From contig JAOSJL010000001.1 of the NCBI GenBank assembly GCA_027494115.1, positions 2,661,937 to 2,725,936 of the forward strand: a DNA stretch of 64,000 nucleotides, in the 5' to 3' direction. Both the position numbers and the translations under genes were made by a program. Numbering within the stretch: position 1 is the first letter of the stretch; every line of letters begins with the position of its first letter. Positions 25,801-58,108 of this stretch are shown here, one piece after another. A model generated the notes under the pieces. That model did not search any database, had not been told where the DNA came from, and saw only the letters and a list, made by a program, of their open reading frames with translations. The stretch comes from Acidimicrobiia bacterium (lineage in GTDB: Bacteria; Actinomycetota; Acidimicrobiia; IMCC26256; JAOSJL01).

Positions 25801-26403
25801 ATGGCCCCGACATCCACCGCCACACTCGACAGCGAACCCCGCCGGCGGCTGATCGCCGCGGCCGAGGCCCGATTCCGCCGATTCGGCTACCGCCGCACGA
25901 CCGTGGAAGACATCACCGCAGAGGCCGAGACCGGCAAGGGAAGCCTCTACCTGCACTTCGACTCGAAACAGGACGTCTATCTGGCCGTCGTGTCGGAATC
26001 CCTGGAGCGGTTCGTCCGGCGCGCCTCCGAGGTCCTGGAAGGCCACGACAGTGTGCCACTCCGACTCGCCGCGCTCGTCGAGGCCACCGCGCATCACTAC
26101 GGCGAGGACGAGCTGCTGCGCGCGTCGTTGTTGGGACACGGAGAGCTCGTCGAAGGGCGCGTTGCGGAGCTCGCGGCCGAGATCCAACGCGACCGAATCC
26201 GGTCGCTCCTGGCCATGGTGCTCCTGGAGGGCCAGGAGGCCGAAACCATCCGCGGCGACCTCGACGCCGAGACGACAGCCTCGGTGCTCTTCGAGATGGG
26301 CTGGGCCATCGTGCGCGCCGAGCTCGAGGGCCACAGCGATCTACCTCTGGAGCTGGCGCTGCGGACGCTCAACGACGTCGTCGGCCGCGGCGTACTCGCC
26401 TAG
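25801..26403 (+). CDS. TetR/AcrR family transcriptional regulator
   Basis: N-terminal HTH RRTTVEDITAEAETGKGSLYLHFDSKQDV. ATG 25801 is preferred over the TTG at 25774. Confidence 0.85.
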   Translation: MAPTSTATLDSEPRRRLIAAAEARFRRFGYRRTTVEDITAEAETGKGSLYLHFDSKQDVYLAVVSESLERFVRRASEVLEGHDSVPLRLAALVEATAHHYGEDELLRASLLGHGELVEGRVAELAAEIQRDRIRSLLAMVLLEGQEAETIRGDLDAETTASVLFEMGWAIVRAELEGHSDLPLELALRTLNDVVGRGVLA

Positions 26404-27368
26404 CGAGCGTTCCCCGCGTGTGGGCGGGCGGCGCAGACCCCCGGAGACACCGCCGGGCGGAAACGGAACAGTCCCCGATAGTGGTCGTGCCACCAGTCGA
26501 AGAAGTCACCCGGGTCGTGACCCTCGACCATCCACCGGTAGTGCTCGTCGAAGATCGGGCGGGCCGAGGCCACGTCTGTCGCGCTGAACGCCCGGCCGTC
26601 GTAGCCGGCGACCTCTGCAGCGCCGAAGGTCCACGATCCGGCGTTCACGTACTGACGGCCGTCGAGATCCACGACTCCGGGGAGGTGGGTGTGACCACAC
26701 ACAACCGTGCGATAGTCGCTGTCGGCGAGGAATGTTCGGACGGGCTCGAAGAACGAGTTCGGGTCACCCCACACCGCTCGTGACCAGTGGGCGATGAACT
26801 CCTCACCCCGCCCTCGGCGGCGGAGCTGACGGGCGAAACGGTGGCCGAGCCAGTGCATGACCCGGTTCTGCCAGGTGTCGTGGTCCTGGACCGGAACGCG
26901 GAAATGAAAGCGTGCGACGCGCTCGAAGAAGCTGTGCGCGGCCATGGCAACGAAGTAGGCCCACCTGTCGATGTGGACCGTGTCATCGAGAGCGTGGCCG
27001 TGCCACACCAGCGCGTCACCGATCTCGATCCGCTCGGCCATCTCGGCGCCGTGAAACAGCTGGCCGTAGTCGACTCGCCAGTCGTGATTGCCCCGGATGA
27101 ACACGACCCGGGTCTGCGTGGTGAGCCAGTCGATCGTGCGCATGACCTCAGGGTGTGCGGTGGTGATGCGACGCAGACGTAGCCCCTGCGGTAGGTCGAA
27201 GGCATCACCCATGAACACGACTGACTCGCAATCGGTGGCGCATCGCCGGAGGAAATGAACCAGCCGAGTGTCATTGCCACAGAAGATGTCGCTTCGACCG
27301 CCGTCGCCCAGGTGCACGTCACCCACGAAGGCCGTCACCGTGTCGGCCGGCAACCTCAGCATGCTCAC
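26400..27368 (-). CDS. calcineurin-like metallophosphoesterase (LpxH-like architecture)
   Basis: All five motifs are present: GDVHLG, GDAFD, GNHD, WHGH, GHTH. 322 aa. Confidence 0.8.
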   Translation of the reverse strand: MSMLRLPADTVTAFVGDVHLGDGGRSDIFCGNDTRLVHFLRRCATDCESVVFMGDAFDLPQGLRLRRITTAHPEVMRTIDWLTTQTRVVFIRGNHDWRVDYGQLFHGAEMAERIEIGDALVWHGHALDDTVHIDRWAYFVAMAAHSFFERVARFHFRVPVQDHDTWQNRVMHWLGHRFARQLRRRGRGEEFIAHWSRAVWGDPNSFFEPVRTFLADSDYRTVVCGHTHLPGVVDLDGRQYVNAGSWTFGAAEVAGYDGRAFSATDVASARPIFDEHYRWMVEGHDPGDFFDWWHDHYRGLFRFRPAVSPGVCAARPHAGNAR

Positions 27369-27443
27369 CTCTCGGGTTGCCCGGACATTCCTTTCGAGGT
27401 GACCAGACTACGAATCCAGTCAGTCTTGGGCAACTCACCCCCC

Positions 27444-27488: not shown

Positions 27489-27501
27489 GGCAGGTGCCGC
27501 C

Positions 27502-29415
27502 CTACGGCGCAGCGTCGACGAGTTGGGGCATCACCCAGTTCGCGGCGATGTTCGCTCCCTCTCCTTCGAAGTGGATACCGTCGGGTCGGAGCACCACGCC
27601 GTCATCCTCGAGACGGCACTCACCGTCGGGACACGTGAACCCGTCGAGGTCGACGAGTGTGGCTCCTGTCGCGTCGGCCACAGCGCGGATGGCATCGTTG
27701 AAACAACCGAAGCGCTCCTCGGTGTCGGCGGGAACGCCGTCGGCGACGGCCGTGGGCGAGGTGCCGAGCGCCACGACAACTCCCGAAGCCTGAATCGCGC
27801 GTACCTCCGTGGTCATCGCATCGACGTAGAAGTCGGTGAACCTCGTGTCGCACGCCGTGAAGGTCTCGCCGTCGACCTCCCAGGTCGCGAGGCCCGGCGC
27901 CCCCTGGAAGATGAACGCGACGTCGGGATCCGACTCGGCGAGATCGTCGGGCCACTCTCCCGCACACAGGCTCGGGCGATGGCTCAGCAGGACGCATCCG
28001 GGCACAGCCTTGTTCCACGTGAAGACCGAATAGTCGTCTTGCACGTCCTGCATACCGAGACCGAGGAGTGCGCCCACCGAATCACCCAGCACGAGAACCG
28101 TGGTGGTGTCGGGCGCGTTCGGATCCGGTGTCGTGGGTCCCGGCGGTGCAGTGGGCGGCGGTAGATCGCCGTCGATCGCCAGTGCGGGGTCGAAGGGTGA
28201 GGATCGCGCGCCGGCGGTCGACGCGACGAGCGCGAGGACGGCGACGGCGGCGGCCGCTGGGGCGAGGACCTTGAACGTCGGCTTCGAGAGCGCACCTCGG
28301 CGGATCGGCATCTCGAGGACGAAGTACGACGTGACGGCGAACGCCAGGCTGACCGCCACACGGCACACGAAGAGTGGCCACCCGGTGAAGCCCATGCGCG
28401 CCGGACTCATCGTGACGAACACGGGCCAGTGCCAGAGGTAGAGGCCATACGAGATGAGTCCGAGCCAGCGCAACGGAGGGAACGACAGCGCGAGCCCGAG
28501 TGGCCCCGGGCGCGGTTTGGCTCCCGCGGCGATCACCGCCACGGCCCCGACGCCGCACGCGAACAGGCCACCCAGATAGAGAACGTCACTCGTTCCGTCG
28601 AGGGCCACCCACGCCCAGACCAGGCCCGCCGCGCCCACAATGCCCACACCTTCCACCGCGTGCCGGGCACGTGGTGTGCGCGCCGGACCTGTGCTGCGCA
28701 GCCAGACAGCGAGAGCCGCTCCGAGGAGAACCGCCATCGCCCGCGTGTCGGTCCCGAGATAGACGCGCTCGGGATCACCTCCCGGCGTGTACAGAACCAA
28801 CATCCACACTGCGGAGGCCACCGCGACACCGAGGGCAGTGAGAAAGACAGGTCGAAGCCGCCCCGAGCGCCAGCGGAGCAGACCCAGAACGACCAGGGGC
28901 CATATCAGGTAGAACTGCTCTTCGATAGCGAGGCTCCACGTGTGCTCCAGCGGCGAGGGAGCCACGAAGAGCTCCCAGTAGCTCGTCTCGGCGAAGATCG
29001 AATGCCAGTTGGCGACGTAGGCCACCGTGGCGATGCCGTCGGCCCGGATACGGGAGAGCTCGCCGGGATCGGCGAAGAGCCAGGCGTAGACCGCCACTCC
29101 GGCGAGCATCCCGAAGAGCGCCGGCAGCAGTCGGCGTGCGCGCCGTGCCCAGAAGGCGCCGAGCTTCACGGATCCCGTGGAACCCCACTCCTGGAGTAGC
29201 AACGAGGTGATGAGGAAGCCCGAAAGTACGAAGAAGAGGTCGACGCCGAGATAGCCGCCGGTCAGGTAGCCGCCGTGGAAGAACAGGACAGCGACCACGG
29301 CGGCGCCGCGAAGCCCGTCGAGTGCGGGCATGTGAGGAAGGGACCAACGGGAGACCACGGCGCACGGTGAGGCTACTGCCGGGGATTTCGGCCAACCGAC
29401 GCGTCCGTGACGCAC
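27502..29415 (-). CDS. AT3-SGNH O-acyltransferase (OatA/OafA-like), paralog 1
   Basis: PALDGLRGAAVVAVLFFHGG, GVDLFFVLSGFLIT, HTWSLAIEEQFYLIWP and YGLYLWHWPVF match acyltransferase-3. A linker leads to an SGNH domain with VLGDSVG and RPDGIHF. The start (29415 or a few codons downstream) is uncertain. Confidence 0.85.
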   Translation of the reverse strand: MRHGRVGWPKSPAVASPCAVVSRWSLPHMPALDGLRGAAVVAVLFFHGGYLTGGYLGVDLFFVLSGFLITSLLLQEWGSTGSVKLGAFWARRARRLLPALFGMLAGVAVYAWLFADPGELSRIRADGIATVAYVANWHSIFAETSYWELFVAPSPLEHTWSLAIEEQFYLIWPLVVLGLLRWRSGRLRPVFLTALGVAVASAVWMLVLYTPGGDPERVYLGTDTRAMAVLLGAALAVWLRSTGPARTPRARHAVEGVGIVGAAGLVWAWVALDGTSDVLYLGGLFACGVGAVAVIAAGAKPRPGPLGLALSFPPLRWLGLISYGLYLWHWPVFVTMSPARMGFTGWPLFVCRVAVSLAFAVTSYFVLEMPIRRGALSKPTFKVLAPAAAAVAVLALVASTAGARSSPFDPALAIDGDLPPPTAPPGPTTPDPNAPDTTTVLVLGDSVGALLGLGMQDVQDDYSVFTWNKAVPGCVLLSHRPSLCAGEWPDDLAESDPDVAFIFQGAPGLATWEVDGETFTACDTRFTDFYVDAMTTEVRAIQASGVVVALGTSPTAVADGVPADTEERFGCFNDAIRAVADATGATLVDLDGFTCPDGECRLEDDGVVLRPDGIHFEGEGANIAANWVMPQLVDAAP

Positions 29416-29560: not shown

Positions 29561-31544
29561 GTGGTGGACAGTCGACAAGAGCCACACAACCAGCGGACGC
29601 TCCGTCACGTACCGGCGCTCGATGGCCTGCGCGGCCTCGCGGTCGCCGGAGTTCTGCTCTTCCACGCCGGGCATCTCACCGGGGGCTATCTCGGCGTCGA
29701 CCTCTTCTTCGTACTTTCGGGCTTCCTGATCACGTCACTTCTGCTGGCGGAATGGCGCCGCGAACGCTCCGTCAATCTCGGCCACTTCTGGGCCCGTCGG
29801 GCGCGACGCCTGCTCCCGGCCCTGTTCGGGATGCTCGCCGGCGTAGCGGTGTACGCCATGGTCTTCGCCCAACCCGAGGAACTCGATCGCCTGCGGGTCG
29901 ACGCTCTCGCCACCATCGGGTACGTCGCCAACTGGAGTTCGATCGCCGGCGACCACGCCTACTGGGAGATCTTCGCCGCCCCCTCACCGCTGGAGCACGC
30001 CTGGAGCCTCGCGATCGAAGAGCAGTTCTACCTGATCTGGCCGCTGGTGTTCGTGGGGGTCTTCGCCTGGCGCCGCGGCTCGGCACGCACCCTCTTCTTC
30101 GTCAGTTCCGGCCTCGCCGTCGCTGCAGCGTTGTGGATGTGGACGCTCTACTCCCCCGGAGGCGACACCAACCGCGTCTACCTGGGCACCGACACCAGAG
30201 TGGCCGGAATCCTCATCGGAGCGGCACTCGCGTCCCTCGTGATGTGGCGTGGGCCCGTTCGCTCAGCGCTGTCACGCGTCTCCCTCGAGATCCTGGCCTG
30301 CGTTGCAGTGGTCGGGCTCGCCTTGGCCTGGTCGCGCGTGGGCGGCCAGACCGGAGGCCTCTACACCGGCGGCCTGTTCCTCTGCGGGCTCGCGGTGGCG
30401 CTGATCATCGCCGCGGCCTCGCATCCGACCAAGGGTCCGGTGTCGTACGCGTTGTCGCTGCCCGTCCTGCGGTGGCTCGGGCTCATCTCGTACGGCCTGT
30501 ATCTGTGGCACTGGCCCGTGTACGTCGTGTTCAGCCCCGAACGCACGGGGATCGACGGGTGGGCGCTCACCGGGATCCGCGTCGCCGTGAGCCTGGCCTT
30601 CGCCGTGCTGTCGTACTTCGTCCTCGAGATGCCGATCCGAAGGGGTGCTCTCCCGGGCTGGCGCATCGCCACGGTCGCCCCCGCCGCCGCCGTCATCCTC
30701 CTCGTCGCCCTTTTCAGCTCGACCGTCGGCGGTGTCCGTCAGACCGAGCTGGCGTTCTCCGAGGTGCCCCCGGCGGATCTTCCGAGCGAGGCGGAGCTCA
30801 CCCAGACCGATCCGAGCGTTCAGGTCGCGGGCGTGGCTGCCGACAACCCCAGCACGGCCCGCCAGCGACGTGTCCTGATCGTCGGCGACTCGGTGTCGGC
30901 GTTCCTCGGGCGCGAGATCGACGCTCTCCAATCAGAATGGTCGGTGAGTGCCCGCAATGGTGGACGCGGGGCCTGTGGCCTCAACGACGGTCAGCGTCGC
31001 ATCCGCACCGCTCAGGGTGACTACGTCACGCAGGAACCCCAGCTCTGCTCGGAGGGTTGGGACGCCTACGTCGACGCTTTTCGTCCCGATGTGATCTTTC
31101 TGGTGCTCGGAGCCCCGAGTATCTCGGAGTGGGAGATCGACGGCACATGGCGCGCCGTGTGAGCCCGAGTTCGACACGTGGTACCACGACCGCCTCGTCG
31201 AGGAGGTCGACAAGCTCACGACCTACGGAGGGAAGGTCGTCATCACGACCGCTCCCGAGACGCTGGCCGGCTGGGGTCCCGCCGACAAGACCTCCTCGAC
31301 GACCTGCGTCAACGCGGTCCACCGCGCCGTCGCCGGCGAGCATCCGCGGGCTTCGCTGGTCGACCTGCGTGCTCGGGTCTGTCCGGACGGTCAGTGCCAC
31401 CGCACGGAGCAGGGCGTCACGCTGCGTCCGGATGGCCTCCACTTCGAGGACGAGGGCGCCCGGATCATCGCCCGCTGGCTCGTTCCCCAGGGCCTCGACG
31501 CTGCCCCACCGGACCCACCCTCCGCGACCGCGGCCGAGCTCTGA
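29561..31544 (+). pseudogene. AT3-SGNH O-acyltransferase, paralog 2, frameshifted
   Basis: Same motifs as paralog 1 (LLFHAGH, IVGDSVS). After ...IDGTWRA the paralog-like tail CEPEFDTWYHDRL...RPDGLHFEDEG...AAEL* continues in another frame. The indel is near 31155-31158. Span is 1984 nt (3n+1). Confidence 0.8.
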
Positions 31545-31666: not shown

Positions 31667-33746
31667 TTGTCGACTGCGTCGTCCACCGTGTCGGCGACGC
31701 CCTCCGCGACGGTTGCTCGACCGACGACAACCGGTTCTGCACCACCTGATACGCCGGTGACCGACGCGCCGGGTGGGCTGAAGAACCGGATCCGCTATAT
31801 GCCCTCGCTCGACGGGATCCGGGGTCTGGGCATGCTCACGATCCTGATGTTCCATGCGGGCCACATTCGCGGTGGCTTCTTGGCCATCGAGGCCTTCTTC
31901 GGGCTCTCCGGTTTTCTCATCACATCGCTGCTGCTCTCCGAGCACGCCAAACACGGCTCGGTGGGCCTCGGAGCGTTCTGGGCCCGGCGCGTGCGGCGAC
32001 TTCTGCCGGCCATCCTGGCGCTCCTGGGTGGAATCGTCCTCTACGCCGTCGTTTTCGCCGCCGCCGACGAACTCGAGACGGTCCGCCGCGACGCACTCGC
32101 GACCCTCGGGTACGTTGCCAACTGGAATGCCGTCGCCGGCGGTCGCGACTACTGGGAGCTCTTCCAGTCGCCGTCACCTCTCGAGCACACGTGGACGCTC
32201 GCTATCGAAGAGCAGTTCTATCTGATCTGGCCGATTCTCTTCGTAGGGGTGTTCGCCTGGAAGTACGGGAATCCGAAAGTGCTCTTCGGGATCTGCGTCT
32301 CGCTGGCCGTGGCATCCACGGCCTGGATGTGGTTTCTCTACTCACCGAGTGAGTCGACGCAGCGCCTCTACATGGGAACCGACACACGCGCTACCGCGTT
32401 CCTCGCCGGATGTGCGCTGGCATGTCTGTTGTTCTGGCGTGGTGAGACCACATCACGTCGCGGGAAACTGTTGCTGAACGGCGCCGCCATCGTCAGCGTG
32501 GTGGTGATGGCGTTCATGTGGCTGTTCCTCACGGGTGAGTCACCGCTCGCCTACCGCGGCGGCATGTTCCTGCACACGATCCCTCTCCTGATCGTCATCG
32601 CTGCGGCGGCTCACTCGCACTCGGGACCTGTTTCGCGGTTCCTGTCCTTCCGACCCTTCGTGTGGATCGGACTCATCTCGTACGGCGTCTACCTGTGGCA
32701 CTGGCCTCTCTTCGTCGTTCTCGACGAGCAGCGCACCGGTCTCGACGGCTGGTCGCTCACCGCTGTTCGGCTCGCGGTGAGCCTTGCCGTCGGCGTCGGG
32801 TCCTATTGGCTCATCGAGATGCCGGTCCGCAAAGGGGCACTGCCCGGGTGGCGGATCAAAGCGCTCCTTCCGGCGGCAGGGCTCGGCGTGGCCGTCCTGC
32901 TCGTCATCTCCACAGCCGGCGCCAAGACCACGACGCAACTCGCCTTCCAGGGAGCCGAGGACGCTGCTGCCGCCGCCGAATCCGGACAAGCGCCACCCCC
33001 GCCACCCGACGTCGCCTCGCCCGACGACCCGCCGCGGGTGATGGTCGTCGGGGACAGTGTCGGCGTCTTCCTCGGCATCGCCATGAAGGACCGCGAGGAA
33101 GACCTCGGCGTCGTCTCCCACAACATCGCCGAGGGAGGGTGCATCTTCACCGAAGGGGCGGAACTGATGCGCTCGCCACAGGTCGGGGGCGTCGAGCTCA
33201 TCGAGCCTGCCGAGCACTGCACCGACAACTGGACAGCGGCAACCCAGGAGTTTCGGCCAGACGTGGTGTTCGCGGCGTTCGGTGGTGGAGCCCGCAGCGA
33301 TCCCGAAGTCGACGGCGAGTTCCTCGTGCCGTGCACACCCGAGTACGCGACCTGGTACAACGCCCAGTTCTCGGCCTCGATCGACGAGTTGACCGCGACG
33401 GGAGCGACCGTCGTCATCGCCACGACTCCCCCACTGGGAGGCCGGCGAATTCCAGGGACGCGGCGACGTGGAATCATGGCTCGACATCGTCAATTCCCGC
33501 ATCGACTGCATCGACGCCCTCAACGCGGACGTAGCCCGCTCCAACCCGAGCGTCGAACTCGTGGATCTCCGCGAGTTCGCTTGCCCCGGCGAGGAGTGCC
33601 TCGAGGAGCTCGACGGCGTGAAGATGCGTGAGGACGGGGTCCACTTCCAAGGCGAGGCGGCCGCGATCGTGAACGGGTGGATCGTTCCGCAGTTGATCGA
33701 CGCGATTCCCGCCGATCCTCCGGCGGCGGCAGAAACCCAGCTCTGA
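31667..33746 (+). pseudogene. AT3-SGNH O-acyltransferase, paralog 3, frameshifted
   Basis: Same motifs (LMFHAGH, VVGDSVG). After ...VVIATT the tail PHWEAGEFQGRGDVESWLDIVNSRID...REDGVHFQGEA... is in the -1 frame. There is an extra C in the C5 run 33428-33432. The start is uncertain (TTG 31667, GTG 31757 or ATG 31799). Confidence 0.8.
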
Positions 33747-33766
33747 CGTGACGGCGTGACTCGGCC

Positions 33767-43004: not shown

Positions 43005-44187
43005 GGAAGCCGGTCGGGGTGGGCTGCGACCTCGTCGGCCACCACCTGCAACGTCCCGAGCGCACTCTGGGGCCATGTGAGGCGCGGGGCTCGTGCGAGC
43101 GCGCCCTCCGTGAGCCGTGCACGAAGCTCGTCGTCGGTGAGCACACGGACCATCGCATCGGCGAGTTCCTGAGTACCCGTGGCCAGGAGGCCCGTCGAGC
43201 CGTCGACGACGGCGTCGACATGACCGGGGATTCTGGTGGCAACCCCCGGCGTACCGCACGCGGCCCCCTCCGTGAGCGTGAGACCCCATCCCTCACGCAC
43301 CGACGTCGAGGCAACGAGCCAGGCCGCGCGGTAGCGGTTAACCAGGTCGTCGTTGGACACGCGACCGAGAAACTCGATCCACTCCCCACCGCCGAGGCGC
43401 CGCGCCTGGGCTTCCAGGTCGGCGCGCAGCGGCCCTCGCCGGCAATCCACACGCGGAGGTTCGGGACATGTCGACGAACCTTCGCGACGCTGTCGAGAAG
43501 CACGTCGAAGCGCTTGGGCGGCATGAACCGACCTGCGGCCAGGATCGTCGGTGCCGCAGCCTTCTCTCCGCCCGGCGAGAAGCGGGCGTCAACGCCGTTG
43601 GGGACGACCGAGATTTGACTGCCCCTGAAACCGAGGTCGTCGATGAGCGCTCGACGGGTGGAGTCGGACACCGCCACGATTCGGGTGTTGCGGTAGAGGG
43701 GCGGTTCGACATAGCGCTCGATGCCGTGAGCGATGTGCGAAGCAGCGGGCGGAAGCAGCGAGTGCCACATGTCGAGGTGGAGGTGATGCAGTACGGCGAT
43801 CCGTGGTGCTCGTGTCCACAGCGGGCCGAAGAACGGCAGTCCGTGGAAGATCTCCACCACGGCGTCGGGACGGCCGTCGAGGTTCAGCAGTCCGGCGAGC
43901 GCCGTGCGGGCGAAGACGGTGAACCGACCGCCACGGCGGATCACCCGGTAGCCGTCCCGGACGATCTCGTGCGGACGACCGGGCACTTCGGCGGTCCGGA
44001 GGGTCACGTCGAGGCCGGCCTCCGCCCAGAGCGCGGCGATCTGCGAGGCGTGCTCCTCACTCCCGCCCGCTGTGGGGTCGTCGCGGTCGCGCCACGCCAC
44101 CATGTGGACATTTTGGAGACCCACTGCGGCGGCCGTGGCGGCCATCGCCTCGGGAGTCGCGTCAGCAGGTGCAACACGTGTCGTCAT
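42983..44187 (-). pseudogene. GT4 family glycosyltransferase (third copy, inverted), frameshifted
   Basis: The N-part (track 42370..44187) MTTRVAP...NLRVWIAGEG joins the frame of track ORF 42983..43450 (PLRADLEAQARRLG...TSVREGWGLTLTEGAACGTPGVA). One base is missing at C-run 43433-43435. Span is 1205 nt (3n+2). Confidence 0.8.
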
Positions 44188-45499: not shown

Positions 45500-45512
45500 C
45501 TGATCCGGCGCA

Positions 45513-49913: not shown

Positions 49914-49922
49914 GATTCTGAG

Positions 49923-52168: not shown

Positions 52169-53613
52169 AGGTACTGGTACGCGAACAGGTTCGGCCACAC
52201 CGACACACCGAACCGGTCGATCTTGCCCAGCGCGCCGCCACCGCGCGCCGACGCACCTCTGTGATCGTCGCCGCCCTGCTCGTTCACACCGGCCTCACCC
52301 GCACCGCGGTCGACGACCTCCAGAGGCAGCCCCACCGCCTCACGGCGGCGTACGTCGAAACCGGCACCGGACGCGATGCGCTCGAAGCTTCGACGGGTGA
52401 AGAACCGAACATGGCCGCGGTCGAGGATGCCCCGCCGGTCGTAGTCGAAACGCCCGAGCGCCACGCGCGCACGCGGATACCAGTGGGCGAAGTTGGGGAT
52501 GCTCGTCACGAGTGAGCCGCCGAGGCGCAGCCGACCGCGGATCTCGACCATGAGGTCGCCCGGCTCGCGCACGTGCTCGAGAACGTCGGCAGCCAGCACG
52601 ATGTCGTAGCCCGTGCCCACTTCATCGGGAATCCCGTGGTCGAGGTCGGCTTCGACGAACTGGTCGACACGCTCCCCCACGCCGTCGATCTTCTCGATGT
52701 CGACGCCGGTGACCGTATGACCGTGCTCACGCAGCAACGCCGCCAAGGATCCGTCCGAGCAGCCCAGGTCGAGGATCCTGCTGGCCGGTCGGCCGCGCAG
52801 CCACGCCATCAGCCGCACGTGCGACGTGTCGTCGGACTCCTTCAGTTCGTAGCCCTGGTCGGCGAACGCCATCTCCCCGGTTCCGAAACCCATCTTGTGG
52901 GCTCGGTAGCGCACGACGTCCTTGCTCACGTCGCGGGCGTACTTCATCCCGTCGACGTAGCAGATCTCATCGCCGTAGTACGTGGGGATCGGGACCTCGG
53001 CGATCCGCTTCGAGGCCTCCCTGAGCTGGATGATGATCTGGGTGTCGAAGTTGAAACCGTCGTCGTTGCGGTCGAAGGGAATGTCCTTCAGGGCTGCGAC
53101 GCTGTAGGCGCGGTAGCCCGAGTGCCACTCACTCAGGTCGAGGCCGACCACCTTGTTCTCGAACGTCGTGAGAATCCGGTTGCCGACGTACTTGTACATC
53201 GGCATGCCCCCACGACGCGCTTCGCCCTCGTCGAGCATCCGTGAGCCGAACACCGCGTCGGCCTCGTCGCGCTCGAGCGGTTCCACGATCTGGGGGAGGA
53301 ACTCCGGTGCGTACTGACCGTCGCCGTGGAGCAGTACGACGATGTCGAGGTCGTGGTCGATGGCCCAGCGGTAGCCCGCCTTCTGGTTCCCGCCGTACCC
53401 GAGGTTCCGCGGGTGACGGACCACCGTGAGGGGCAGATCCTCCTGATGCTGCTGGTAGCCGAGACCCACGAGGTAGGTGGAGTCCTGGCTGGCGTCGTCG
53501 CCGATGAGAACCTTGGTGATCCGCGGTCGGAAGTCTTCGGGAATTCGGTCGAGGACGTGCGCGAGCGTCGAGGCGGCGTTGTACGTCACGACGAGAATGC
53601 CGATGCGCTTCAT
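52129..53613 (-). CDS. bifunctional GT2 glycosyltransferase / class I SAM-dependent methyltransferase
   Basis: GT2 half: ILVVTYNAASTL, IGDDASQDST, NLGYGGNQKAGY, LLHGDGQY. MT half: ILDLGCSDGSL, VLAADVLEHV, RLGGSLVTSIPN. 494 aa. Confidence 0.85.
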   Translation of the reverse strand: MKRIGILVVTYNAASTLAHVLDRIPEDFRPRITKVLIGDDASQDSTYLVGLGYQQHQEDLPLTVVRHPRNLGYGGNQKAGYRWAIDHDLDIVVLLHGDGQYAPEFLPQIVEPLERDEADAVFGSRMLDEGEARRGGMPMYKYVGNRILTTFENKVVGLDLSEWHSGYRAYSVAALKDIPFDRNDDGFNFDTQIIIQLREASKRIAEVPIPTYYGDEICYVDGMKYARDVSKDVVRYRAHKMGFGTGEMAFADQGYELKESDDTSHVRLMAWLRGRPASRILDLGCSDGSLAALLREHGHTVTGVDIEKIDGVGERVDQFVEADLDHGIPDEVGTGYDIVLAADVLEHVREPGDLMVEIRGRLRLGGSLVTSIPNFAHWYPRARVALGRFDYDRRGILDRGHVRFFTRRSFERIASGAGFDVRRREAVGLPLEVVDRGAGEAGVNEQGGDDHRGASARGGGALGKIDRFGVSVWPNLFAYQYLYELGVLPDADEF

Positions 53614-53622
53614 GGCGCGATT

Positions 53623-55213
53623 CTACGCGGTTGCTTCGTCGAGGCCATCGTCGTCACGGTGGTCGGCCAACCTGCGGGCGGGATCGACCGAGCGGGGAAT
53701 GATCGGAGCGTCTCGGCCGGTCGTGGACTTCTCCTCCGACGCGGTCTGTTCGTGGTACTCGGCCTCGACGTTCACCGACCAGATGTCGTGCCCGGCGTTG
53801 TCCACGATGTTCTCCACGGTGAGCATCGCCGTGTACATGGAGTGGTCCTGGTTGTTGTACTTGTGCATGCCGTTGCGACCGACGGGATGAACGTCGGGGA
53901 CGTTGTCGGCGATCCACTTCTTCAGCACCTCGACGTTGTCGCTGTAGGTCTCGTCGTAGGTGGGGTACGCCTTGGGCTGTCGGACGACGTAGCCCGACTC
54001 CACACGCGACGGGTCGACCAGGCCGAGCTTCTGCAACTCGCGCTTGCCCAGCTCTATGAGCTCTCCGTCGGGAGCGTTCCAGAGCTCGTCACCCTCGAAC
54101 ACGAAGTACTCGAGCCCGAGACACGTGCGGCCCTCCTTGACGAGGTAGGGCGACCACGATCCGAAGTTCTGGATCCGACCGAGCTCGACGTCGGGATCGT
54201 GCACGTAGATCCAATTGTCGGGGAACCCGACCTCTTCGGGGACGACCAGCGCAACGGTGAGGAAGTCGCGGTAGGTGATGTCATTCGCCGCGTGGAGCGC
54301 CGCATCGCCGGCGGCCGGTTCCATCGCACGCAGCAGGCCGCTGAACGGCATCGACGAGATGACGTCGGTGGCGGGATACCGGGTCGCGGCACCGTCGTCG
54401 GATACCGCCTCCACCGCTACGACCTTGCCGTTCTCGTGGACGACCTTGGTGGCCCGCGTGTTCATCACGACCTTGGTGCCCTGGGCCTCGACGAGGTCGC
54501 GGCAGCGCTCCCACATCATCCCCGGGCCGTACTTCGGGTACTGGAACTCTTCGATCAGGCTCGTGACCTGCTTGCCCTTGCCCTGGCGTCGCTTCCACCA
54601 GTCGGGCTTCAGCGCCTCCCACACGGCCCGGAACAGCGAGAGGTTCTTGATGCGCTGTGCCGCCCAGTCGGCCTGGATCTCGTTGGCGTCGATCCCCCAC
54701 ACCTTCTCGGTGTACGTCTTGAAGAAGTGGTGGTACAGACGCCATCCGGAAGCGCGACGCCGTCCACCCCTCGAACGTGGTCTTGTCCTTCGGTGGCTTG
54801 ATGCGCACCCAGACATAGCTCAGGACGCAACGCACCGCTTCGATGATCCCGAGGCCGCGCAGCGCATTGACCGGCTTGATCGGGTAGTCGAAGTACTTGC
54901 CGTTGTAGAAGATACGGCTCATACGCGGACGCTGGAGAAAGTCTTCGTCGGGGAGGATCTCGTGCCACAGGTCCTCGACGGGCTGGACCTTGGTGAAGAA
55001 CCGGTGGCCACCGATGTCGAAACGCCATCCGTCGCGCTCCACGGTGCGGGAGATGCCGCCCACCGTGTCGTCGGCTTCCAGCACGGTCGCGGTCACGCCC
55101 TTCTTCGCCAACTCGTAGGCCGCCGTGAGCCCGGCGGGGCCGGCTCCGATGATGACGACCTGGGGATCGGAGTCGCGCGTCGAGGGTGCGGTGGATTCGG
55201 CCTGAGAGGTCAT
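53623..55213 (-). pseudogene. FAD-dependent oxidoreductase (Rossmann GxGxxG; amine-oxidase / UDP-galactopyranose-mutase-like fold), frameshifted
   Basis: VVIIGAGPAGLTAAYELAKKG...VLEADDTVGG marks the N-terminus. TTFEGW...SRF then switches frame to GWRLYHHFFKTYTEKVWG. There is an extra C at 54746-54749. Span is 1591 nt (3n+1). Confidence 0.7.
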
Positions 55214-55353
55214 GGGGATACGAGTTCTCCGGAAGTGGGTCCGAGGTGCGTCCGACGCGGAGGGCGGCCCGACCCACGTGGGCTCCTGGCGTCGAACAGT
55301 GTACCGAGAGGTCACTCGAGGGCACCGGATCGTGCCCCGCGCTCAGCAGTCTC

Positions 55354-56519
55354 CTAGGGCGTGTAGATGCCGCTGAAGGTGAACATTGCGTAGGCGACGA
55401 GGGCCCCGGCAGACACGGTCATGGCCACACGCTCGGCCCGTTGGTCGGCCGTGACCATGGCGACGACGATGATGAACGGAAATGCCGCCATGGCGTAGCG
55501 CTCGAGCGAATCGAGGTTGCTGGCGGAGAGCGACAGGAGCAGGATTCCGGCCGAGAAGAGGCCGTAGGAGACCGGCAGCCGCATGAACATCACGACGAGG
55601 AGCGCGAGGAGGAACACCCCCCACGGGAAATGGAGCGCCCGTAGGAGGTCCTCCCGCGCGATGAGGTCTCCGGCGTAGTCGAGCAGACTCGACACCGGGT
55701 GCGCGCGGAACCCTGGCGGGTCGGATCGCTCTGGAGGGTGAGGGGGAGGAAGAGATCGCCGTAGACGATCTGTACCCACACCAGATAGATCCCGATCCCG
55801 ACACCGGAGGAGATCACGGCCAGCAATCCGAGAAGGCGCTCCCGCGAGGCCGATCTCTTCCAGCACCGCCAGAGCTCTGCGGCCGCCGCGACGGCCAGGA
55901 ACACCGCGAAGGGCCGCGTGAGCCCGGCCACCACCCCCAGGGCGATGGCGGGACCCCAACGTCTCGAACGAATGGCGAGGAAGAACCCGACCGCGAGTGC
56001 CAGGAAGAGCGCTTCGGCGTAGCCCATCACGAGCACGAAGGCTGTCGGCCAGATCGCCGACAGCCACACGGCGCGGGTGGCGAGAGCCTCGTCCCCGGTT
56101 TCGCGCATGACGAGGCGTCGCAGTAGCACCATGAACACGATCGCCGACACGTTGGCGATCAGTAGGAGTGCGAGATCGACATTCCCCACGACCAGCGCCA
56201 GCGCTCGGCCGAGCAGCGGGAACAGCGGCCAGAACCGCAACCCCACCTCCCCCACGCCGCCGTAGCCGTCTTCCGCGATTCCCTGATACCAGTCGGCGTC
56301 CCACGCCAGAAGCCCATCGCGCAGCTGGGTCGGGTCCGCGCCCCTATGGAGCTCGTCGACCACGATCTCCGCGACGACGAGCGCAGCGACCGTGAGGACA
56401 CGCCCGACGATCCACGGCAGTGCGACGAGGCGCAGCTCCACGGCCCATCGCTCGACGACCTCCGAGATCCCACGTCCGGGTCGTGCGGACGCCGAGGAGG
56501 TGTGGGCATCCGGCGTCAC
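55354..56519 (-). pseudogene. polytopic membrane protein, PIG-V-like/GT-C mannosyltransferase-like, frameshifted
   Basis: The WDADWYQGIAEDGY motif is followed by multiple TM helices. …GDLFLPLTLQ switches frame to SDPPGFRAHPVSSLLDY…. One base is missing around 55715-55740. Span is 1166 nt (3n+2). Confidence 0.6.
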
Positions 56520-58108
56520 GGTGGTCCAAAGCGCGTCAGGTTCTGGAACTCGAAGAAGTTGTCGTCGCCGACGACGACGGTTTCAGCGTCAGGGCGCTCA
56601 CCCTGCAATGTGGTGACCACAGCCTCGCAACTCGTTTCCAACGTTCTGTACCCCGGGGCCCACACGAGCCAGATCGTGGTGTCCGGTCCGGCCGCGTCGA
56701 GAAGGACCTGCGCGTAGGCAGCGGGGTCGGCGGCGGCGTTCCGCTCCTCGTAGTCGGTCCAGTCGACGAACTCGGGAGACGCTCCGTCGGGCCACGCAAG
56801 ACCCCGCACGTCGACCGAGAGCAGGCGGTCCACGTCGGGACCGACCTGGTCGGGACAGAATCCGACCACGTCTCCCGGCTGTGCAGCTTCGTTGATGACG
56901 CTGGTCACCTCACCTGCCTGTGTGCGGTGGGTGACACCCTGCTCGATACCCCCGGCGAAACCGAGGAGGAGAACGACGGCGAGTGCGGCGCTGCGGAGGG
57001 TCCGCGACGCGAGGGTGAGGAAGCCCGCCGCGGCCACCAGGAGATACAGGGGCAGGACGACCGAGGCGTAGCGGGACTCGAACGCTCCGGCCGTGACCCA
57101 CGCGATACCGCCGCCCACGAGAAGGGTGCCGATCCCGATCGCAGCCTCGTTGCGGGCGAGCGGTCGCGTCTGGAGATCCAGCCCGATGTACCGCCGATCG
57201 AGTGCGACGCCGAACAGCCCGAGTGCGGCGAACGCGACGAGCAGCGGGCCCATCAACCATCCGGCCGGCACGAAACCACCGCCGAAGTCGATGAGCGCGT
57301 GTCCGAGGGCCGTCGTCAATGAAACCGGTGTCGCCCACGGTGTTCCCGTGTGGGCGAGCTGGTCGAGGAACACGGGAACCCACGGGAGGAAGGTGGCGCA
57401 ACCGATCGCGACGGCGACGAGAACGCGCCGCGCCGCGCGCGGGTCGGGATCGCGCACGGATCGAAACACGAGATAGACGCCGACTACGACGACGAGGTAC
57501 AGCGACCAGTACGCGTCATAGAGAAGTAACCCGGTGAGAAGGACGACGACCGCCAGGCGAGCGACCGACGGCCGTTCAAAGGCACGCCGCATCGCGAGAG
57601 TTCCGAGAAGGACGAGGAGTATCTGCAACGAGTAGGGACGCGCTTCGTTGCTGTATCGGATGGCGAATGGCGACAGGGCGAGGAGCAGCAACGCGATCCA
57701 GGCGAGGACCCGACCACCCATTCGTCGGGCCGTGAACCACATGGCGGGGAGCGCCGCCAGGCTGAAGACTCCCGAGAGCGACCGCACGGCGGCGTTCCCG
57801 TCACCGAAGATGTCGATCCAGAAGTGGAGCAGGACGTAGAACAACGGCGGCGACCCATCCCGCCGCAGGGTGTCGACGAGATCGCCGAGGGGAACGGAGG
57901 CGATGTTGACGGTCAGCGCCTCGTCGAGCCAGAGCTCCGACTGGGCGAAGAACCGCAGGACGACGCCTGCGACGAGGGCGAGACCGATCCCGATGGGAAC
58001 AATCCGCCACAGCCAGGTCGGACCGTCGGAACGCGCGGGTGGCTCGTGGTCGTTGCCTCGCTCGCGGGCCAACGGAGCGCGCGTGACCTCGCCGGGGGAC
58101 GTCTGCAC
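56516..58108 (-). CDS. GT-C glycosyltransferase (GT39/ArnT/PMT_2-like)
   Basis: 530 aa and polytopic. ELWLDEALTVNIA, PPLFYVLLHFW and the overall layout are typical of the ArnT/PMT_2 family, with a C-terminal soluble domain. The stop overlaps the next start by 4 nt. Confidence 0.7.
   Translation of the reverse strand: MQTSPGEVTRAPLARERGNDHEPPARSDGPTWLWRIVPIGIGLALVAGVVLRFFAQSELWLDEALTVNIASVPLGDLVDTLRRDGSPPLFYVLLHFWIDIFGDGNAAVRSLSGVFSLAALPAMWFTARRMGGRVLAWIALLLLALSPFAIRYSNEARPYSLQILLVLLGTLAMRRAFERPSVARLAVVVLLTGLLLYDAYWSLYLVVVVGVYLVFRSVRDPDPRAARRVLVAVAIGCATFLPWVPVFLDQLAHTGTPWATPVSLTTALGHALIDFGGGFVPAGWLMGPLLVAFAALGLFGVALDRRYIGLDLQTRPLARNEAAIGIGTLLVGGGIAWVTAGAFESRYASVVLPLYLLVAAAGFLTLASRTLRSAALAVVLLLGFAGGIEQGVTHRTQAGEVTSVINEAAQPGDVVGFCPDQVGPDVDRLLSVDVRGLAWPDGASPEFVDWTDYEERNAAADPAAYAQVLLDAAGPDTTIWLVWAPGYRTLETSCEAVVTTLQGERPDAETVVVGDDNFFEFQNLTRFGPP

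What the first reader, a model, noticed from the sequence alone, without database searches (positions are those of the whole stretch)
26400..58108. Expanded, largely uncharacterised envelope-glycan assembly and decoration locus (GT-C / GT4 / GT2-MT / AT3-SGNH)
Seen: from 26.4 to 58.1 kb every gene is envelope-related.
- A calcineurin-type metallophosphoesterase.
- Four AT3-SGNH O-acyltransferases.
- A double methyltransferase.
- Three GT4 enzymes.
- Two ~1460-aa AftD-like GT-C proteins with discoidin-type (DG..T.W) repeats.
- Three more polytopic GT-C-like proteins (49923-52168, 55354-56519, 56516-58108).
- A GT2-methyltransferase fusion and a Rossmann FAD enzyme.

Established: GT-C enzymes act outside the membrane on polyprenyl-phosphate sugars made by DPM1/PpgS-like GT2 enzymes. 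AT3-SGNH proteins (OatA, OafA/OafB) O-acetylate glycans extracytoplasmically. From memory, and needing a check, the M. tuberculosis aftD neighbourhood (Rv0224c-Rv0236c) shows the same MT + GT4 + AT3 + AftD association, and most of it is functionally unassigned.

Inference: this is an amplified version (2 AftD-like, 3 GT4, 4 AT3, at least 4 MT domains). It should build a heavily O-acylated and O-methylated lipoglycan or wall polysaccharide whose structure cannot be predicted from here. No Wzx/ABC exporter, nucleotide-sugar or decaprenyl-phospho-arabinose (UbiA/DprE) genes lie in the window.
Basis: partly seen in the sequence, partly recalled or inferred. Interest (0 to 1): 0.75.

Follow-up and report, generated by a model that had tools for sequence, protein, structure and literature searches.

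The report
Acidimicrobiia cell-envelope glycan assembly locus

Summary
The gene content is as described: 16 consecutive envelope-type genes. They are one metallophosphoesterase, four AT3-SGNH acyltransferases, one double methyltransferase, three GT4, two ~1460-aa AftD-like GT-C proteins with discoidin/CBM domains, three further GT-C enzymes, a GT2-methyltransferase fusion and a flavoenzyme.

Corrections:
- The source is an Acidimicrobiia MAG, not a mycolate-producing organism.
- Seven genes are split in the window by 1-2-bp assembly indels. Three independent assemblies show them intact, so they are not pseudogenes.
- The "Rossmann FAD enzyme" resembles UDP-galactopyranose mutase (E 3e-23, catalytic motifs kept). 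A nucleotide-sugar gene is therefore present.
- Structure prediction shows the two unassigned polytopic proteins are GT-C fold. One founds a family with no Pfam model and carries a lectin-like domain.
- Only three methyltransferase domains lie inside the coordinates.
- The M. tuberculosis parallel (AftD + AT3 + methyltransferase; GT4 only from memory) holds at domain level, but that locus is now partly assigned to mycolate transport.

Best reading: an arabinogalactan/LAM-like assembly line for a furanoside-containing, O-acylated, O-methylated polymer. The donor sugars and the product remain unknown.

It is a new variant of a known kind, of moderate interest. The best lead is the mutase-like/GT2/GT-C module, which recurs across phyla and occurs as a single fused protein.

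The parts
26400..27368 (-). Calcineurin-type metallophosphoesterase (322 aa). It sits at the locus boundary and its membership is uncertain.
   Evidence: Pfam Metallophos and Metallophos_2, E ~2e-9. NCBIfam gives only a weak phosphodiesterase hit. Its presence next to AftD-like genes in relatives was not examined.
27502..29415 (-). AT3-SGNH O-acyltransferase a (637 aa)
   Evidence: Pfam Acyl_transf_3 E 9e-24, plus SGNH and DUF459. The best NCBIfam hit is SucT, E 3e-24, below its cut-off. The GDS and DGxH motifs are kept.
29561..31544 (+). AT3-SGNH O-acyltransferase b (661 aa after correction). The window lacks 2 bases at 31149.
   Evidence: The indel is shown. The corrected protein hits Acyl_transf_3 E 2e-26 and SGNH E 1e-7. 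It is 51% identical to AT3a.
31757..33746 (+). AT3-SGNH O-acyltransferase c (662 aa). The window has an extra C at 33428.
   Evidence: Searches show the intact gene and the indel. One search gives Acyl_transf_3 E 8e-21 and SGNH E 7e-9.
33890..35830 (+). AT3-SGNH O-acyltransferase d (646 aa)
   Evidence: It is 59% identical to AT3c.
35842..37350 (-). Double SAM-methyltransferase (502 aa): Methyltransf_11 at residues 53-140 and Methyltransf_24 at residues 295-415
37474..38637 (+). GT4 glycosyltransferase a (387 aa). Its 3' end overlaps the start of AftD-like 1.
   Evidence: Pfam Glycos_transf_1 E 1e-30 and Glyco_transf_4. It is 54% identical to GT4c.
38631..43004 (+). AftD-like GT-C 1 (1457 aa after correction). 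The window has an extra G at 40311 and lacks a G at 42786.
   Evidence: Indels. Pfam gives GT-C_AftD E 3e-90, F5_F8_type_C, CBM_AftD and DUF7402. TM-like segments lie at both ends.
42983..44145 (-). GT4 glycosyltransferase b (387 aa after correction). The window lacks a C at 43432.
   Evidence: Both GT4 domains are complete in the corrected protein.
44342..45499 (+). GT4 glycosyltransferase c (385 aa), directly upstream of AftD-like 2
   Evidence: Its nearest solved relatives are MshA- and PimB'-type retaining GT4 enzymes.
45513..49913 (+). AftD-like GT-C 2 (1466 aa, intact in the window)
   Evidence: Pfam GT-C_AftD E 7e-89 plus F5_F8_type_C and CBM_AftD. It aligns end to end with M. abscessus AftD (6W98/6WBX), E 1e-36. 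Residues equivalent to K39, E251, K361 and D474 are kept or conservatively replaced.
49923..52168 (+). New GT-C-fold glycosyltransferase with a C-terminal beta-sandwich lectin/CBM-like domain (748 aa after correction). The window lacks a C at 50628.
   Evidence: No Pfam, NCBIfam or PDB sequence hit. The 208 homologues found are all 'hypothetical'. The AF2 model has pLDDT 94. Foldseek gives PglB E 7e-6, AglB, STT3, DPY19, Pmt4, EmbB and AftA for the membrane part, and glucanase, galectin and CBM66 hits for the C-terminus.
52129..53613 (-). GT2-methyltransferase fusion (494 aa, no TM helix)
   Evidence: Pfam Glycos_transf_2 E 5e-21 and Methyltransf_23 E 3e-19. The GT2 domain is nearest to polyprenyl-phosphate sugar synthases: DPMS 5mlz E 3e-7, and AglJ E 4e-18 and PpgS E 5e-14, all below cut-offs.
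53623..55213 (-). UDP-galactopyranose-mutase-like flavoenzyme (529 aa after correction). The window has an extra C at 54748.
   Evidence: The best PDB sequence hits are all UGMs (A. fumigatus 3ute/4u8l E 3e-23, T. cruzi 4dsg E 7e-19). The GGH loop, the LGR arginine, the YP motif and GRxG..Y.NQDHS are aligned. NCBIfam PRK07208.1-4 scores E 5e-240. These motifs are invariant across 40 family members.
55354..56519 (-). PIG-V/GT87-like GT-C glycosyltransferase (388 aa after correction). The window lacks a G at 55701.
   Evidence: Indel. Homologues carry PF04188 or PF09594. The AF2 model has pLDDT 93.5. Foldseek gives STT3, PglB, ALG12/9, ArnT, GPI-MT-I and PimE.
56516..58108 (-). PMT_2-family GT-C glycosyltransferase (530 aa)
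   Evidence: Pfam PMT_2 E 1e-12, above the gathering score. About ten TM-like segments.
58171..58635 (-). 154-aa protein with no family hit, first gene of the minus-strand PMT_2/GT-C/mutase/GT2-MT run. Its role is unknown.
   Evidence: A 61%-identical copy sits directly upstream of the PMT_2/GT-C/mutase-like genes in L014.

Best explanation
The stretch is one intact 16-17-gene cell-envelope glycan locus of an uncultured Acidimicrobiia bacterium. Its logic resembles mycobacterial arabinogalactan/LAM assembly.

Cytoplasmic steps (inferred):
- A UDP-galactopyranose-mutase-like flavoenzyme converts a nucleotide pyranose into its furanose form.
- Three GT4 Leloir transferases and the GT2 domain of the GT2-methyltransferase fusion build a lipid-linked primer and/or load sugar onto polyprenyl phosphate.

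Steps at the outer face of the membrane (inferred from fold and family):
- Five GT-C enzymes extend and branch the polymer from polyprenyl-phosphate-linked donors.
- These are two AftD-like proteins with carbohydrate-binding modules, one PMT_2 type, one PIG-V/GT87 type and one new family with a lectin-like domain.

Decoration (inferred):
- Four paralogous AT3-SGNH enzymes, closest to the arabinan succinyltransferase SucT, O-acylate the polymer.
- Three methyltransferase domains O-methylate it.

What is shown: gene content, intactness, domain and fold assignments, conservation of catalytic motifs, and recurrence of the sub-modules in relatives.

What is inferred: the order of steps, the identity of the sugars, and that all genes serve one polymer.
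For: Intactness rests on three independent assemblies.

AftD-likeness:
- The Pfam GT-C_AftD hits score E ~1e-89.
- AftD-like 2 aligns end to end with the solved M. abscessus AftD.
- Four of the five residues shown essential in M. abscessus AftD are kept or conservatively replaced (residue list from bioRxiv 10.1101/2019.12.22.885152).

Other assignments:
- The GT-C fold of the two unassigned proteins is supported.
- The mutase-like enzyme is supported.
- The AT3-SGNH catalytic motifs are kept in all four copies.

Conservation:
- The same building blocks recur in other Acidimicrobiia. L006, L007 and L008 carry AftD-like, GT4, PMT_2, GT2+DUF2304, methyltransferase and acyltransferase genes, and L007/L008 also carry the mutase-like gene.
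- A 94%-identical genome keeps the locus gene for gene.
Against: - No flippase, no lipid-carrier primase (WecA/WbaP type), no LCP ligase and no decaprenyl-phospho-arabinose genes were found in the window. The pathway is therefore incomplete as seen.
- The sub-modules occur apart in relatives. The PMT_2/PIG-V-like GT-C/mutase-like genes lie without an AftD-like gene within 10 kb in L010, L014 and L018. AftD-like lies without the mutase-like gene in L006. The locus may therefore serve more than one polymer.
- The residue equivalent to AftD D41 is not kept.
- The GT2 domain matches polyprenyl-phosphate sugar synthases only below their family cut-offs.
- No chemistry is known for any Acidimicrobiia envelope glycan.
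Confidence: 0.6

Rival explanations
1. The locus is a 'glycan island' of two or three independent systems that merely lie side by side. The candidates are an AT3-SGNH array, two GT4-AftD-like pairs with the 748-aa GT-C, and a separate PMT_2/PIG-V-like/mutase-like/GT2-MT operon. Each would serve a different polymer or acceptor.
For: - The VOC-like/PMT_2/388-aa GT-C/mutase-like unit is syntenic on its own in L014, L018 and L010. No AftD-like gene lies within 10 kb of it in any of the 68 genome loci tested.
- L006 has the GT4-AftD-like pair without the mutase-like gene.
- In the window the units sit on different strands with convergent ends.
Against: - In L007 and L008 the mutase-like gene directly follows an AftD-like gene.
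- The whole arrangement is kept gene for gene at 94% nucleotide identity.
- Every gene over 32 kb is glycan-related and the stretch is flanked on both sides by beta-oxidation genes.
Confidence: 0.3
2. The mutase-like enzyme supplies UDP-galactofuranose to a cytoplasmic Leloir galactofuranosyltransferase, the GT2 domain, as with glf-glfT2 in mycobacteria. This would build a galactofuran on a lipid carrier. The GT-C enzymes would then add other sugars from separately made polyprenyl-phosphate donors such as DPA or polyprenyl-P-mannose, encoded elsewhere.
For: - The adjacent mutase-like + GT2 arrangement in the window, in Phormidium and in Butyrivibrio mirrors glf-glfT2 (the mycobacterial arrangement is from my own knowledge).
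- AftD homologues in Mycobacteriales use DPA.
- No flippase for a monosaccharide lipid donor is in the window.
Against: - The GT2 domain's nearest characterised relatives are polyprenyl-phosphate sugar synthases (DPMS, AglJ, PpgS), not GlfT-type enzymes.
- A single 1409-aa protein fuses mutase-like, GT2 and PMT_2 GT-C domains. That fits a donor-synthase/GT-C relay better.
- No DPA genes are in the window.
Confidence: 0.3
3. The locus is a decaying, pseudogenised remnant: seven genes are frameshifted and it makes nothing.
For: In the window itself seven genes are split into overlapping ORFs.
Against: - Two independent short-read assemblies have all these genes intact. They differ from the window only by 1-2-bp indels, often in G or C runs, plus two substitutions.
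- A third, 94%-identical long-read assembly has frameshifts at other places and is intact where the window is broken.
- Genes outside the locus are split too: aldolase 5500-6227, an acyl-CoA dehydrogenase fragment at 18663-18953 and an enoyl-CoA hydratase at 19804-20379.
Confidence: 0.02
4. The GT-C enzymes are protein O-glycosyltransferases: the locus glycosylates secreted or S-layer proteins rather than building a wall polysaccharide or lipoglycan.
For: The PMT_2 and STT3/PglB-like folds are shared with protein glycosyltransferases.
Against: - The AftD-type architecture with three CBMs, the four SucT-like AT3-SGNH enzymes and the lectin-like domain on the 748-aa protein all point to polysaccharide acceptors.
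- No candidate acceptor protein is encoded in the locus.
Confidence: 0.08

Closest known systems
[quoted passage not shown]
   Same: - The ~1450-aa architecture is the same: an N-terminal GT-C domain, periplasmic discoidin/CBM modules and a C-terminal TM bundle. AftD-like 2 aligns end to end with the solved structure.
- Equivalents of K39, E251, K361 and D474 are kept or conservatively replaced.
- The AftD-type gene is clustered with an AT3 acyltransferase, a methyltransferase and further GT-C-like membrane proteins.
   Different: - Sequence similarity is low (E 1e-36 over the whole length), and the D41 equivalent is absent.
- There are two paralogues, each preceded by a GT4.
- The acyltransferases are AT3-SGNH fusions, not TmaT-type AT3-only proteins.
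- The host class has no known mycolates or arabinogalactan.
- No DPA genes lie nearby.
SucT (Rv1565c-type AT3-SGNH succinyltransferase of arabinan) and OatA/OafA-type AT3-SGNH O-acetyltransferases
   Same: The domain fusion is the same (Acyl_transf_3 + SGNH). The conserved GDS and DxxH blocks are present. SucT is the best NCBIfam hit.
   Different: The score is far below the SucT cut-off (86 against 1275 bits). There are four divergent paralogues (42-59% identity) in tandem. The acyl group and the acceptor are unknown.
UDP-galactopyranose mutase, eukaryotic type (A. fumigatus 3UTE, T. cruzi 4DSG)
   Same: The FAD fold, the GGH histidine loop, the arginines equivalent to R327 and R447, and the YP and Y..NQDHS motifs all align. 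(The A. fumigatus residue numbers are from my own knowledge.)
   Different: - Identity is only about 25%.
- The protein belongs to the uncharacterised NCBIfam PRK07208 'hypothetical protein' family.
- The position equivalent to R182 is a lysine.
- The substrate is untested, and no paper mentions the family.
Three-component extracytoplasmic glycosylation systems: GtrA/GtrB/Gtr-type, PpgS-Rv3632-Rv3779, and the pentofuranose PPPRS/MATE/GT136 system (PMC11127046)
   Same: A small GT2 of the polyprenyl-phosphate-sugar-synthase type sits next to GT-C transferases. Relatives carry a GT2+DUF2304 pair like PpgS/Rv3632. (The PpgS/Rv3632 pairing is from my own knowledge.) A furanose sugar is implied.
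   Different: - No flippase is in the window.
- The GT2 is fused to a methyltransferase and has no membrane anchor.
- The furanose would come from a flavin mutase acting on a nucleotide sugar, not from PRPP via a UbiA-type synthase.

Membership tests
AftD-type GT-C arabinofuranosyltransferase | N-terminal GT-C_AftD domain (PF11847) | tested here: met
   E 3e-90 for AftD-like 1 and E 7e-89 for AftD-like 2. Both cover almost the whole 661-position profile.
AftD-type GT-C arabinofuranosyltransferase | Full architecture: N-terminal TM domain, long periplasmic region with CBMs, C-terminal TM bundle | tested here: met
   Residues 22-1400 align to 6WBX residues 36-1378. TM-like segments lie at both ends.
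AftD-type GT-C arabinofuranosyltransferase | Residues shown essential in M. abscessus AftD (K39, D41, E251, K361, D474) | tested here: inconclusive
   K39 is K or R, E251 is E, K361 is R and D474 is D. D41 is L here and Y in most Acidimicrobiia homologues. The neighbouring D37 is invariant.
AftD-type GT-C arabinofuranosyltransferase | Transfers arabinofuranose from decaprenyl-phospho-arabinose | not testable with these tools
   No UbiA, DprE1 or DprE2 genes are in the window. The rest of the genome was not available.
UDP-galactopyranose mutase | FAD-binding fold with the histidine loop (GGH) next to the flavin | tested here: met
   GAGPAG and DIGGH align to the A. fumigatus UGM. D66 and H70 are invariant in 40 family members.
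UDP-galactopyranose mutase | Arginines and tyrosines that bind the UDP diphosphate (A. fumigatus R327, R447, Y419, Y453) | tested here: met
   LGR346, GR446, AY416P and Y452-N-NQDHS align with the corresponding UGM residues. The R182 equivalent is a lysine.
UDP-galactopyranose mutase | Pyranose-furanose mutase activity on a UDP-sugar | not testable with these tools
   Indirect support only. Family members are fused to an NAD-dependent sugar epimerase, to GT2, to GT4 and to GT2+PMT_2.
Three-component extracytoplasmic glycosylation system | GT2 polyprenyl-phosphate sugar synthase | tested here: inconclusive
   The best matches are AglJ, PpgS and DPMS, but all fall below the family cut-offs. The domain is only 25-30% identical to the GT2 of the GT2+DUF2304 pairs in relatives.
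Three-component extracytoplasmic glycosylation system | Dedicated flippase (GtrA, Wzx or MATE) in the locus | tested here: not met
   No such Pfam family appears in any ORF scanned in the window. Intergenic gaps inside the locus are at most about 215 bp.
Three-component extracytoplasmic glycosylation system | GT-C transferase | tested here: met
   Five GT-C enzymes are present.
AT3-SGNH O-acyltransferases (OatA/OafA/SucT type) | Fused Acyl_transf_3 and SGNH domains with GDS and DxxH catalytic blocks | tested here: met
   All four proteins qualify.
Mycobacteriales tmaT locus | TmaT-type AT3-only acetyltransferase and a mycolate-transport context | tested here: not met
   The acyltransferases are about 640-660-aa AT3-SGNH fusions nearest to SucT. 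No MmpL/CmpL gene is in the window. Direct comparison with TmaT sequences was not possible.

The most novel reading that the evidence does not exclude
The PRK07208-type mutase-like flavoenzyme, a small GT2 and a GT-C transferase may together form a widespread, undescribed route for adding a hexofuranose (most simply galactofuranose) to envelope glycans outside the membrane.

The proposed relay is UDP-pyranose, then UDP-furanose, then polyprenyl-phosphate-furanose, then GT-C transfer. In Acidimicrobiia the AftD-like and other GT-C enzymes of this locus would use that donor instead of PRPP-derived decaprenyl-phospho-arabinose.

A corollary concerns the AftD + AT3 + methyltransferase (and possibly GT4) module now linked to mycomembrane biogenesis in Mycobacteriales. 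It would be an ancient glycan module that predates mycolic acids.
Probability: 0.2. Interest if true: 0.8.

Novelty: new variant of a known kind. Interest (0 to 1): 0.5.

Why it matters
Acidimicrobiia are abundant in soils, waters and wastewater. No paper on their envelope glycans turned up in the searches.

- The locus shows that they carry, in duplicate, the AftD-type enzyme that is essential in M. tuberculosis. It is clustered with the same kinds of partners (AT3 acyltransferase, methyltransferase, extra GT-C proteins) that were recently tied to the TmaT-AftD complex. This gives an outgroup for asking what that module did before mycolic acids existed.
- The locus also points to a large, unstudied family of mutase-like flavoenzymes: 2130 clusters at E <= 1e-30, across many phyla. 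Its gene neighbours and domain fusions suggest a lipid-linked furanose donor pathway, for which no paper was found.
- It adds a GT-C family with no Pfam model.

None of this is proven. The value lies in well-defined biochemical tests.

Tried and rejected
- **Pseudogene or decay reading.** Rejected after comparison with three other assemblies.
- **Exact look-ups.** The 530-aa PMT_2 protein failed because of a G-to-A difference at window 57763. The 155-aa ORF failed because of a wrong start codon. Shifting the start by one codon worked.
- **PDB sequence searches.** The 748-aa, 388-aa and 530-aa membrane proteins and the 472-aa upstream protein gave nothing usable. Structure prediction was needed for the first two.
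- **Orthology of the GT2 domain.** I expected the window's GT2 domain to be the orthologue of the GT2+DUF2304 pair seen in relatives. It is not (25-30% identity).
- **AftD next to the mutase-like gene.** I expected an AftD-like gene beside the mutase-like gene across genomes. It appeared in 0 of 68 genome loci within 10 kb, so the tight partners are PMT_2 and PIG-V-like GT-Cs. tblastn with window proteins is insensitive outside Actinomycetota, so the counts for GT2 (13 of 68) and PMT_2 (10 of 68) are lower bounds.
- **Literature searches that found nothing.** These were AftD + Acidimicrobiia, PRK07208, lipid-phosphate-galactofuranose spellings, and Microthrix/Acidimicrobiia envelope with arabinogalactan.
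- **Not attempted.** Direct comparison with TmaT/Rv0228 and Rv0225 sequences was not possible, because no route to those sequences remained. A search for DPA genes in the source genome was not possible, because only the window was available.

Full report
**1. Source and sequence quality**

The window is 66-70% G+C. The 1466-aa AftD-like protein is identical to NCBI MCZ7531361.1, named 'MAG: alpha-(1->3)-arabinofuranosyltransferase [Acidimicrobiia bacterium]', on a 3.0-Mb contig. Its homologues at 43-50% identity are almost all from Acidimicrobiia or Acidimicrobiales MAGs. The host is therefore not a mycolate-producing actinomycete.

A codon-position G+C plot showed the coding frame jumping inside seven genes of the locus. 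Their Pfam hits were correspondingly truncated.

Exact-protein look-ups recovered contigs from two short-read assemblies, SRR11288141 and SRR11288142. Over 30 kb they agree with each other and differ from the window only by small changes:
- Indels at window 31149 (2 bases missing), 31641, 33428, 40311, 42786, 43432, 50628, 54748, 55701, 58830 and 59407.
- Two substitutions, at 38744 and 57763.
- Several of the indels lie in G or C runs.

With these corrected, every gene is a single ORF with complete domains. A third assembly (ENA ERZ25039603, 94% nucleotide identity, collinear over 24 kb) has frameshifts at other positions and is intact where the window is broken. Genes outside the locus are split as well. 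The breaks are consensus errors of a long-read assembly, not pseudogenes.

**2. Gene content**

Corrected genes, in window coordinates:

| Window coordinates | Strand | Product |
|---|---|---|
| 26400-27368 | - | Metallophosphoesterase |
| 27502-29415 | - | AT3-SGNH acyltransferase a |
| 29561-31544 | + | AT3-SGNH acyltransferase b |
| 31757-33746 | + | AT3-SGNH acyltransferase c |
| 33890-35830 | + | AT3-SGNH acyltransferase d |
| 35842-37350 | - | 502-aa protein with two methyltransferase domains |
| 37474-38637 | + | GT4 a |
| 38631-43004 | + | AftD-like 1 (1457 aa) |
| 42983-44145 | - | GT4 b |
| 44342-45499 | + | GT4 c |
| 45513-49913 | + | AftD-like 2 (1466 aa) |
| 49923-52168 | + | 748-aa polytopic protein |
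| 52129-53613 | - | GT2-methyltransferase fusion |
| 53623-55213 | - | 529-aa flavoenzyme |
| 55354-56519 | - | 388-aa polytopic protein |
| 56516-58108 | - | PMT_2 protein |

The paralogues are old duplicates. The AT3-SGNH proteins are 42-59% identical, the GT4s 44-54% and the AftD-likes 47%. GT4a/AftD-like 1 and GT4c/AftD-like 2 form two copies of a translationally coupled pair. The same pair is seen in L006.

Only three methyltransferase domains lie inside the stated coordinates.

The flanks encode beta-oxidation and other metabolic enzymes and a TetR regulator. No Wzx, ABC, MATE or GtrA transporter and no UbiA or DprE-type gene was seen.

**3. The large proteins**

- Both AftD-likes hit PF11847 over nearly its whole length. 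They carry F5/8-type-C and CBM_AftD modules.
- AftD-like 2 aligns from residue 22 to 1400 with the solved M. abscessus AftD (E 1e-36).
- The AftD structure paper reports five residues as essential: K39, D41, E251, K361 and D474. Four are kept or conservatively replaced in both copies and in 40 Acidimicrobiia homologues. D41 is not.
- The same paper reports AftD homologues in 11 further orders of the class Actinobacteria. Their presence outside Mycobacteriales is therefore known. Acidimicrobiia were not named in the passages I read, and no paper links AftD with Acidimicrobiia.

**4. The three 'polytopic GT-C-like' proteins**

- The 530-aa protein hits PMT_2 above the gathering score.
- The 388-aa protein has no Pfam hit of its own. 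Many of its homologues carry PF04188 (PIG-V) or PF09594 (GT87). Its model (pLDDT 93.5) matches STT3, PglB, ALG12, ALG9, ArnT, GPI mannosyltransferase I and PimE.
- The 748-aa protein has no hit in Pfam, NCBIfam or PDB sequences. It belongs to a family of about 200 'hypothetical' proteins; the few that carry an organism name are Acidimicrobiia or Actinobacteria MAGs.
- Its model (pLDDT 94, pTM 0.93) matches PglB, AglB, STT3, DPY19, Pmt4, EmbB and AftA in the membrane part. The C-terminal beta-sandwich matches glucanase, galectin and CBM66 folds.

The locus therefore holds five GT-C enzymes, one from an undescribed family.

**5. The flavoenzyme**

- After the frameshift is repaired, all its best solved relatives are UDP-galactopyranose mutases (A. 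fumigatus E 3e-23, T. cruzi E 7e-19). The next class matches only the FAD-binding N-terminus.
- The GGH loop, the arginine in LGR (aligned to FYR), the YP motif and GRxG..Y.NQDHS all align. They are invariant or nearly so in 40 family members.
- NCBIfam places the protein in PRK07208.1-4, named only 'hypothetical protein' (E 5e-240). No paper mentions that name.
- The family is large, with 2130 clusters at E <= 1e-30. It spans Acidimicrobiia, Micromonospora, Frankia, Acidobacteriota, Proteobacteria, Cyanobacteria, Bacteroidota, Clostridia, Bifidobacterium and CPR bacteria.

Family members occur fused to other domains:
- an NAD-dependent sugar epimerase;
- GT2;
- GT4;
- a methyltransferase;
- an LPG_synthase_TM domain;
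- in one 1409-aa protein, both GT2 and a PMT_2 GT-C domain.

That 1409-aa gene is a single ORF on a 33-kb short-read contig. It is followed by a Wzx-type flippase gene and further GT2 and GT4 genes.

In six loci from other phyla, the immediate neighbours were as follows:
- Phormidium: a GT2.
- Butyrivibrio: a GT2 plus an MBOAT.
- A flavobacterium: a GT87 GT-C.
- The other three loci: unrelated or unassigned genes.

**6. The GT2-methyltransferase fusion**

The GT2 domain is closest to polyprenyl-phosphate sugar synthases. These are Pyrococcus DPMS (E 3e-7) and AglJ, PpgS and dolichyl-phosphate hexose transferase, all below their family cut-offs.

Relatives instead carry a 246-253-aa GT2 followed by a DUF2304 protein. 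That resembles the PpgS/Rv3632 pair (my own knowledge). The window's GT2 is only 25-30% identical to it.

**7. Synteny**

- L007 and L008 (wastewater metagenome) carry AftD-like, mutase-like, GT2, DUF2304, methyltransferase, deacetylase, PMT_2, a second AftD-like, DUF459, GT2 and GT4 genes.
- L006 (Acidimicrobiales) carries AT3 x2, GT2, DUF2304, methyltransferase, deacetylase, PMT_2 x2, GT4, AftD-like, MBOAT and GDSL genes.
- Among 68 genome loci anchored on the mutase-like gene, the 154-aa/PMT_2/388-aa GT-C/mutase-like unit recurs, wholly or in part, in L014, L018 and L010. None has an AftD-like gene within 10 kb.

The locus is therefore built from modules that also occur apart. This leaves open whether it serves one polymer or several.

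**8. Comparison with M. tuberculosis**

A 2026 preprint describes a conserved 'tmaT locus' in C. glutamicum, M. tuberculosis and M. smegmatis. [quoted passage not shown] - MmpA and Cgp_3166 are described there as probable glycosyltransferases. MmpA resembles the first 11 TM helices of AftD.

The remembered association of AftD with an AT3 and a methyltransferase is real, and the preprint adds GT-C-like partners. The GT4 assignment of Rv0225 rests on memory and was not checked. The locus is no longer 'mostly unassigned', and its assigned role concerns mycolates.

The acyltransferases in the window differ from TmaT. They are AT3-SGNH fusions whose best named relative is SucT, known to me as the arabinan succinyltransferase. 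All four keep the GDS and DGxH blocks.

**9. Interpretation**

The best-supported reading is an arabinogalactan/LAM-like assembly line for a furanoside-containing, O-acylated and O-methylated envelope polymer (confidence about 0.6).

Three points stay open: whether the furanose enters by a Leloir GT2 or by a polyprenyl-phosphate donor, whether the AftD-like enzymes use DPA made elsewhere, and whether one or several polymers are made.

The most novel reading still allowed is a mutase/GT2/GT-C relay that makes and uses a lipid-linked hexofuranose. No paper describing such a donor was found. Known extracytoplasmic pentofuranose systems start from PRPP instead (PMC11127046).

**10. Verdict**

The locus is a new variant of a known kind of system, in an uncultured lineage. 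Interest is moderate (0.5).

Noticed in passing
window 9636-17375: There is a second envelope-type cluster 9 kb upstream of the locus. It holds another GT2-methyltransferase fusion (9636-11255, minus strand) that is only 22% identical to the first. Next comes a 472-aa soluble protein with a weak C-terminal methyltransferase signature (11630-13048). Two 71%-identical sulfatase/LtaS-type membrane proteins of about 740 aa follow (13045-15252 and 15126-17375)..
   Followed up: partly
window 5500-6227, 18663-18953, 19804-20379, 58830, 59407: Genes outside the locus are also split or truncated. These are a class II aldolase in two ORFs, an acyl-CoA dehydrogenase C-terminal fragment and an enoyl-CoA hydratase lacking its N-terminus. 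Two more indels fuse an alcohol dehydrogenase and an acyl-CoA dehydrogenase into one ORF at 59345-60934. Over the 30 kb compared, the error rate is about one indel per 2.7 kb..
   Followed up: partly
window 58171-59730; L014 5622-6047: A 154-aa protein with no family hit and a 363-aa zinc alcohol dehydrogenase precede the PMT_2 gene on the minus strand with overlapping or near-abutting ends. A 61%-identical copy of the 154-aa protein sits in the same position in another Acidimicrobiia MAG. Its role is unknown..
   Followed up: partly
L089 4398-8627: One 1409-aa protein fuses the mutase-like flavoenzyme, a GT2 and a PMT_2 GT-C domain. It is followed by a Wzx-type flippase gene, a GFO/IDH/MocA oxidoreductase, two GT2 genes and a GT4 gene. 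Other fusions of the same flavoenzyme family join it to an NAD-dependent sugar epimerase (P0364), GT4 (P0454), LPG_synthase_TM (P0491) and a methyltransferase (P0408)..
   Followed up: partly
window 37474-43004 and 44342-49913: GT4 and AftD-like genes form two copies of a tightly coupled pair. In the first pair the GT4 stop overlaps the AftD-like start; in the second the gap is 13 nt. The same pairing, with a 4-nt overlap, occurs in L006 at 8727-14320. This suggests the GT4 and the AftD-like enzyme work together..
   Followed up: no
window 42983-43004 and 52129-52168: Convergent genes overlap at their 3' ends. AftD-like 1 overlaps GT4b by 22 nt, and the 748-aa GT-C overlaps the GT2-MT by 40 nt. 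This leaves no room for terminators between the units.
   Followed up: no
L090 (ENA ERZ25039603 contig_16918, 1.3 Mb): A sister genome at 94% nucleotide identity keeps the locus gene for gene. Its own, different frameshifts break GT4a, AftD-like 1, GT4b and AftD-like 2. It is useful as a second reference for correcting either assembly..
   Followed up: yes
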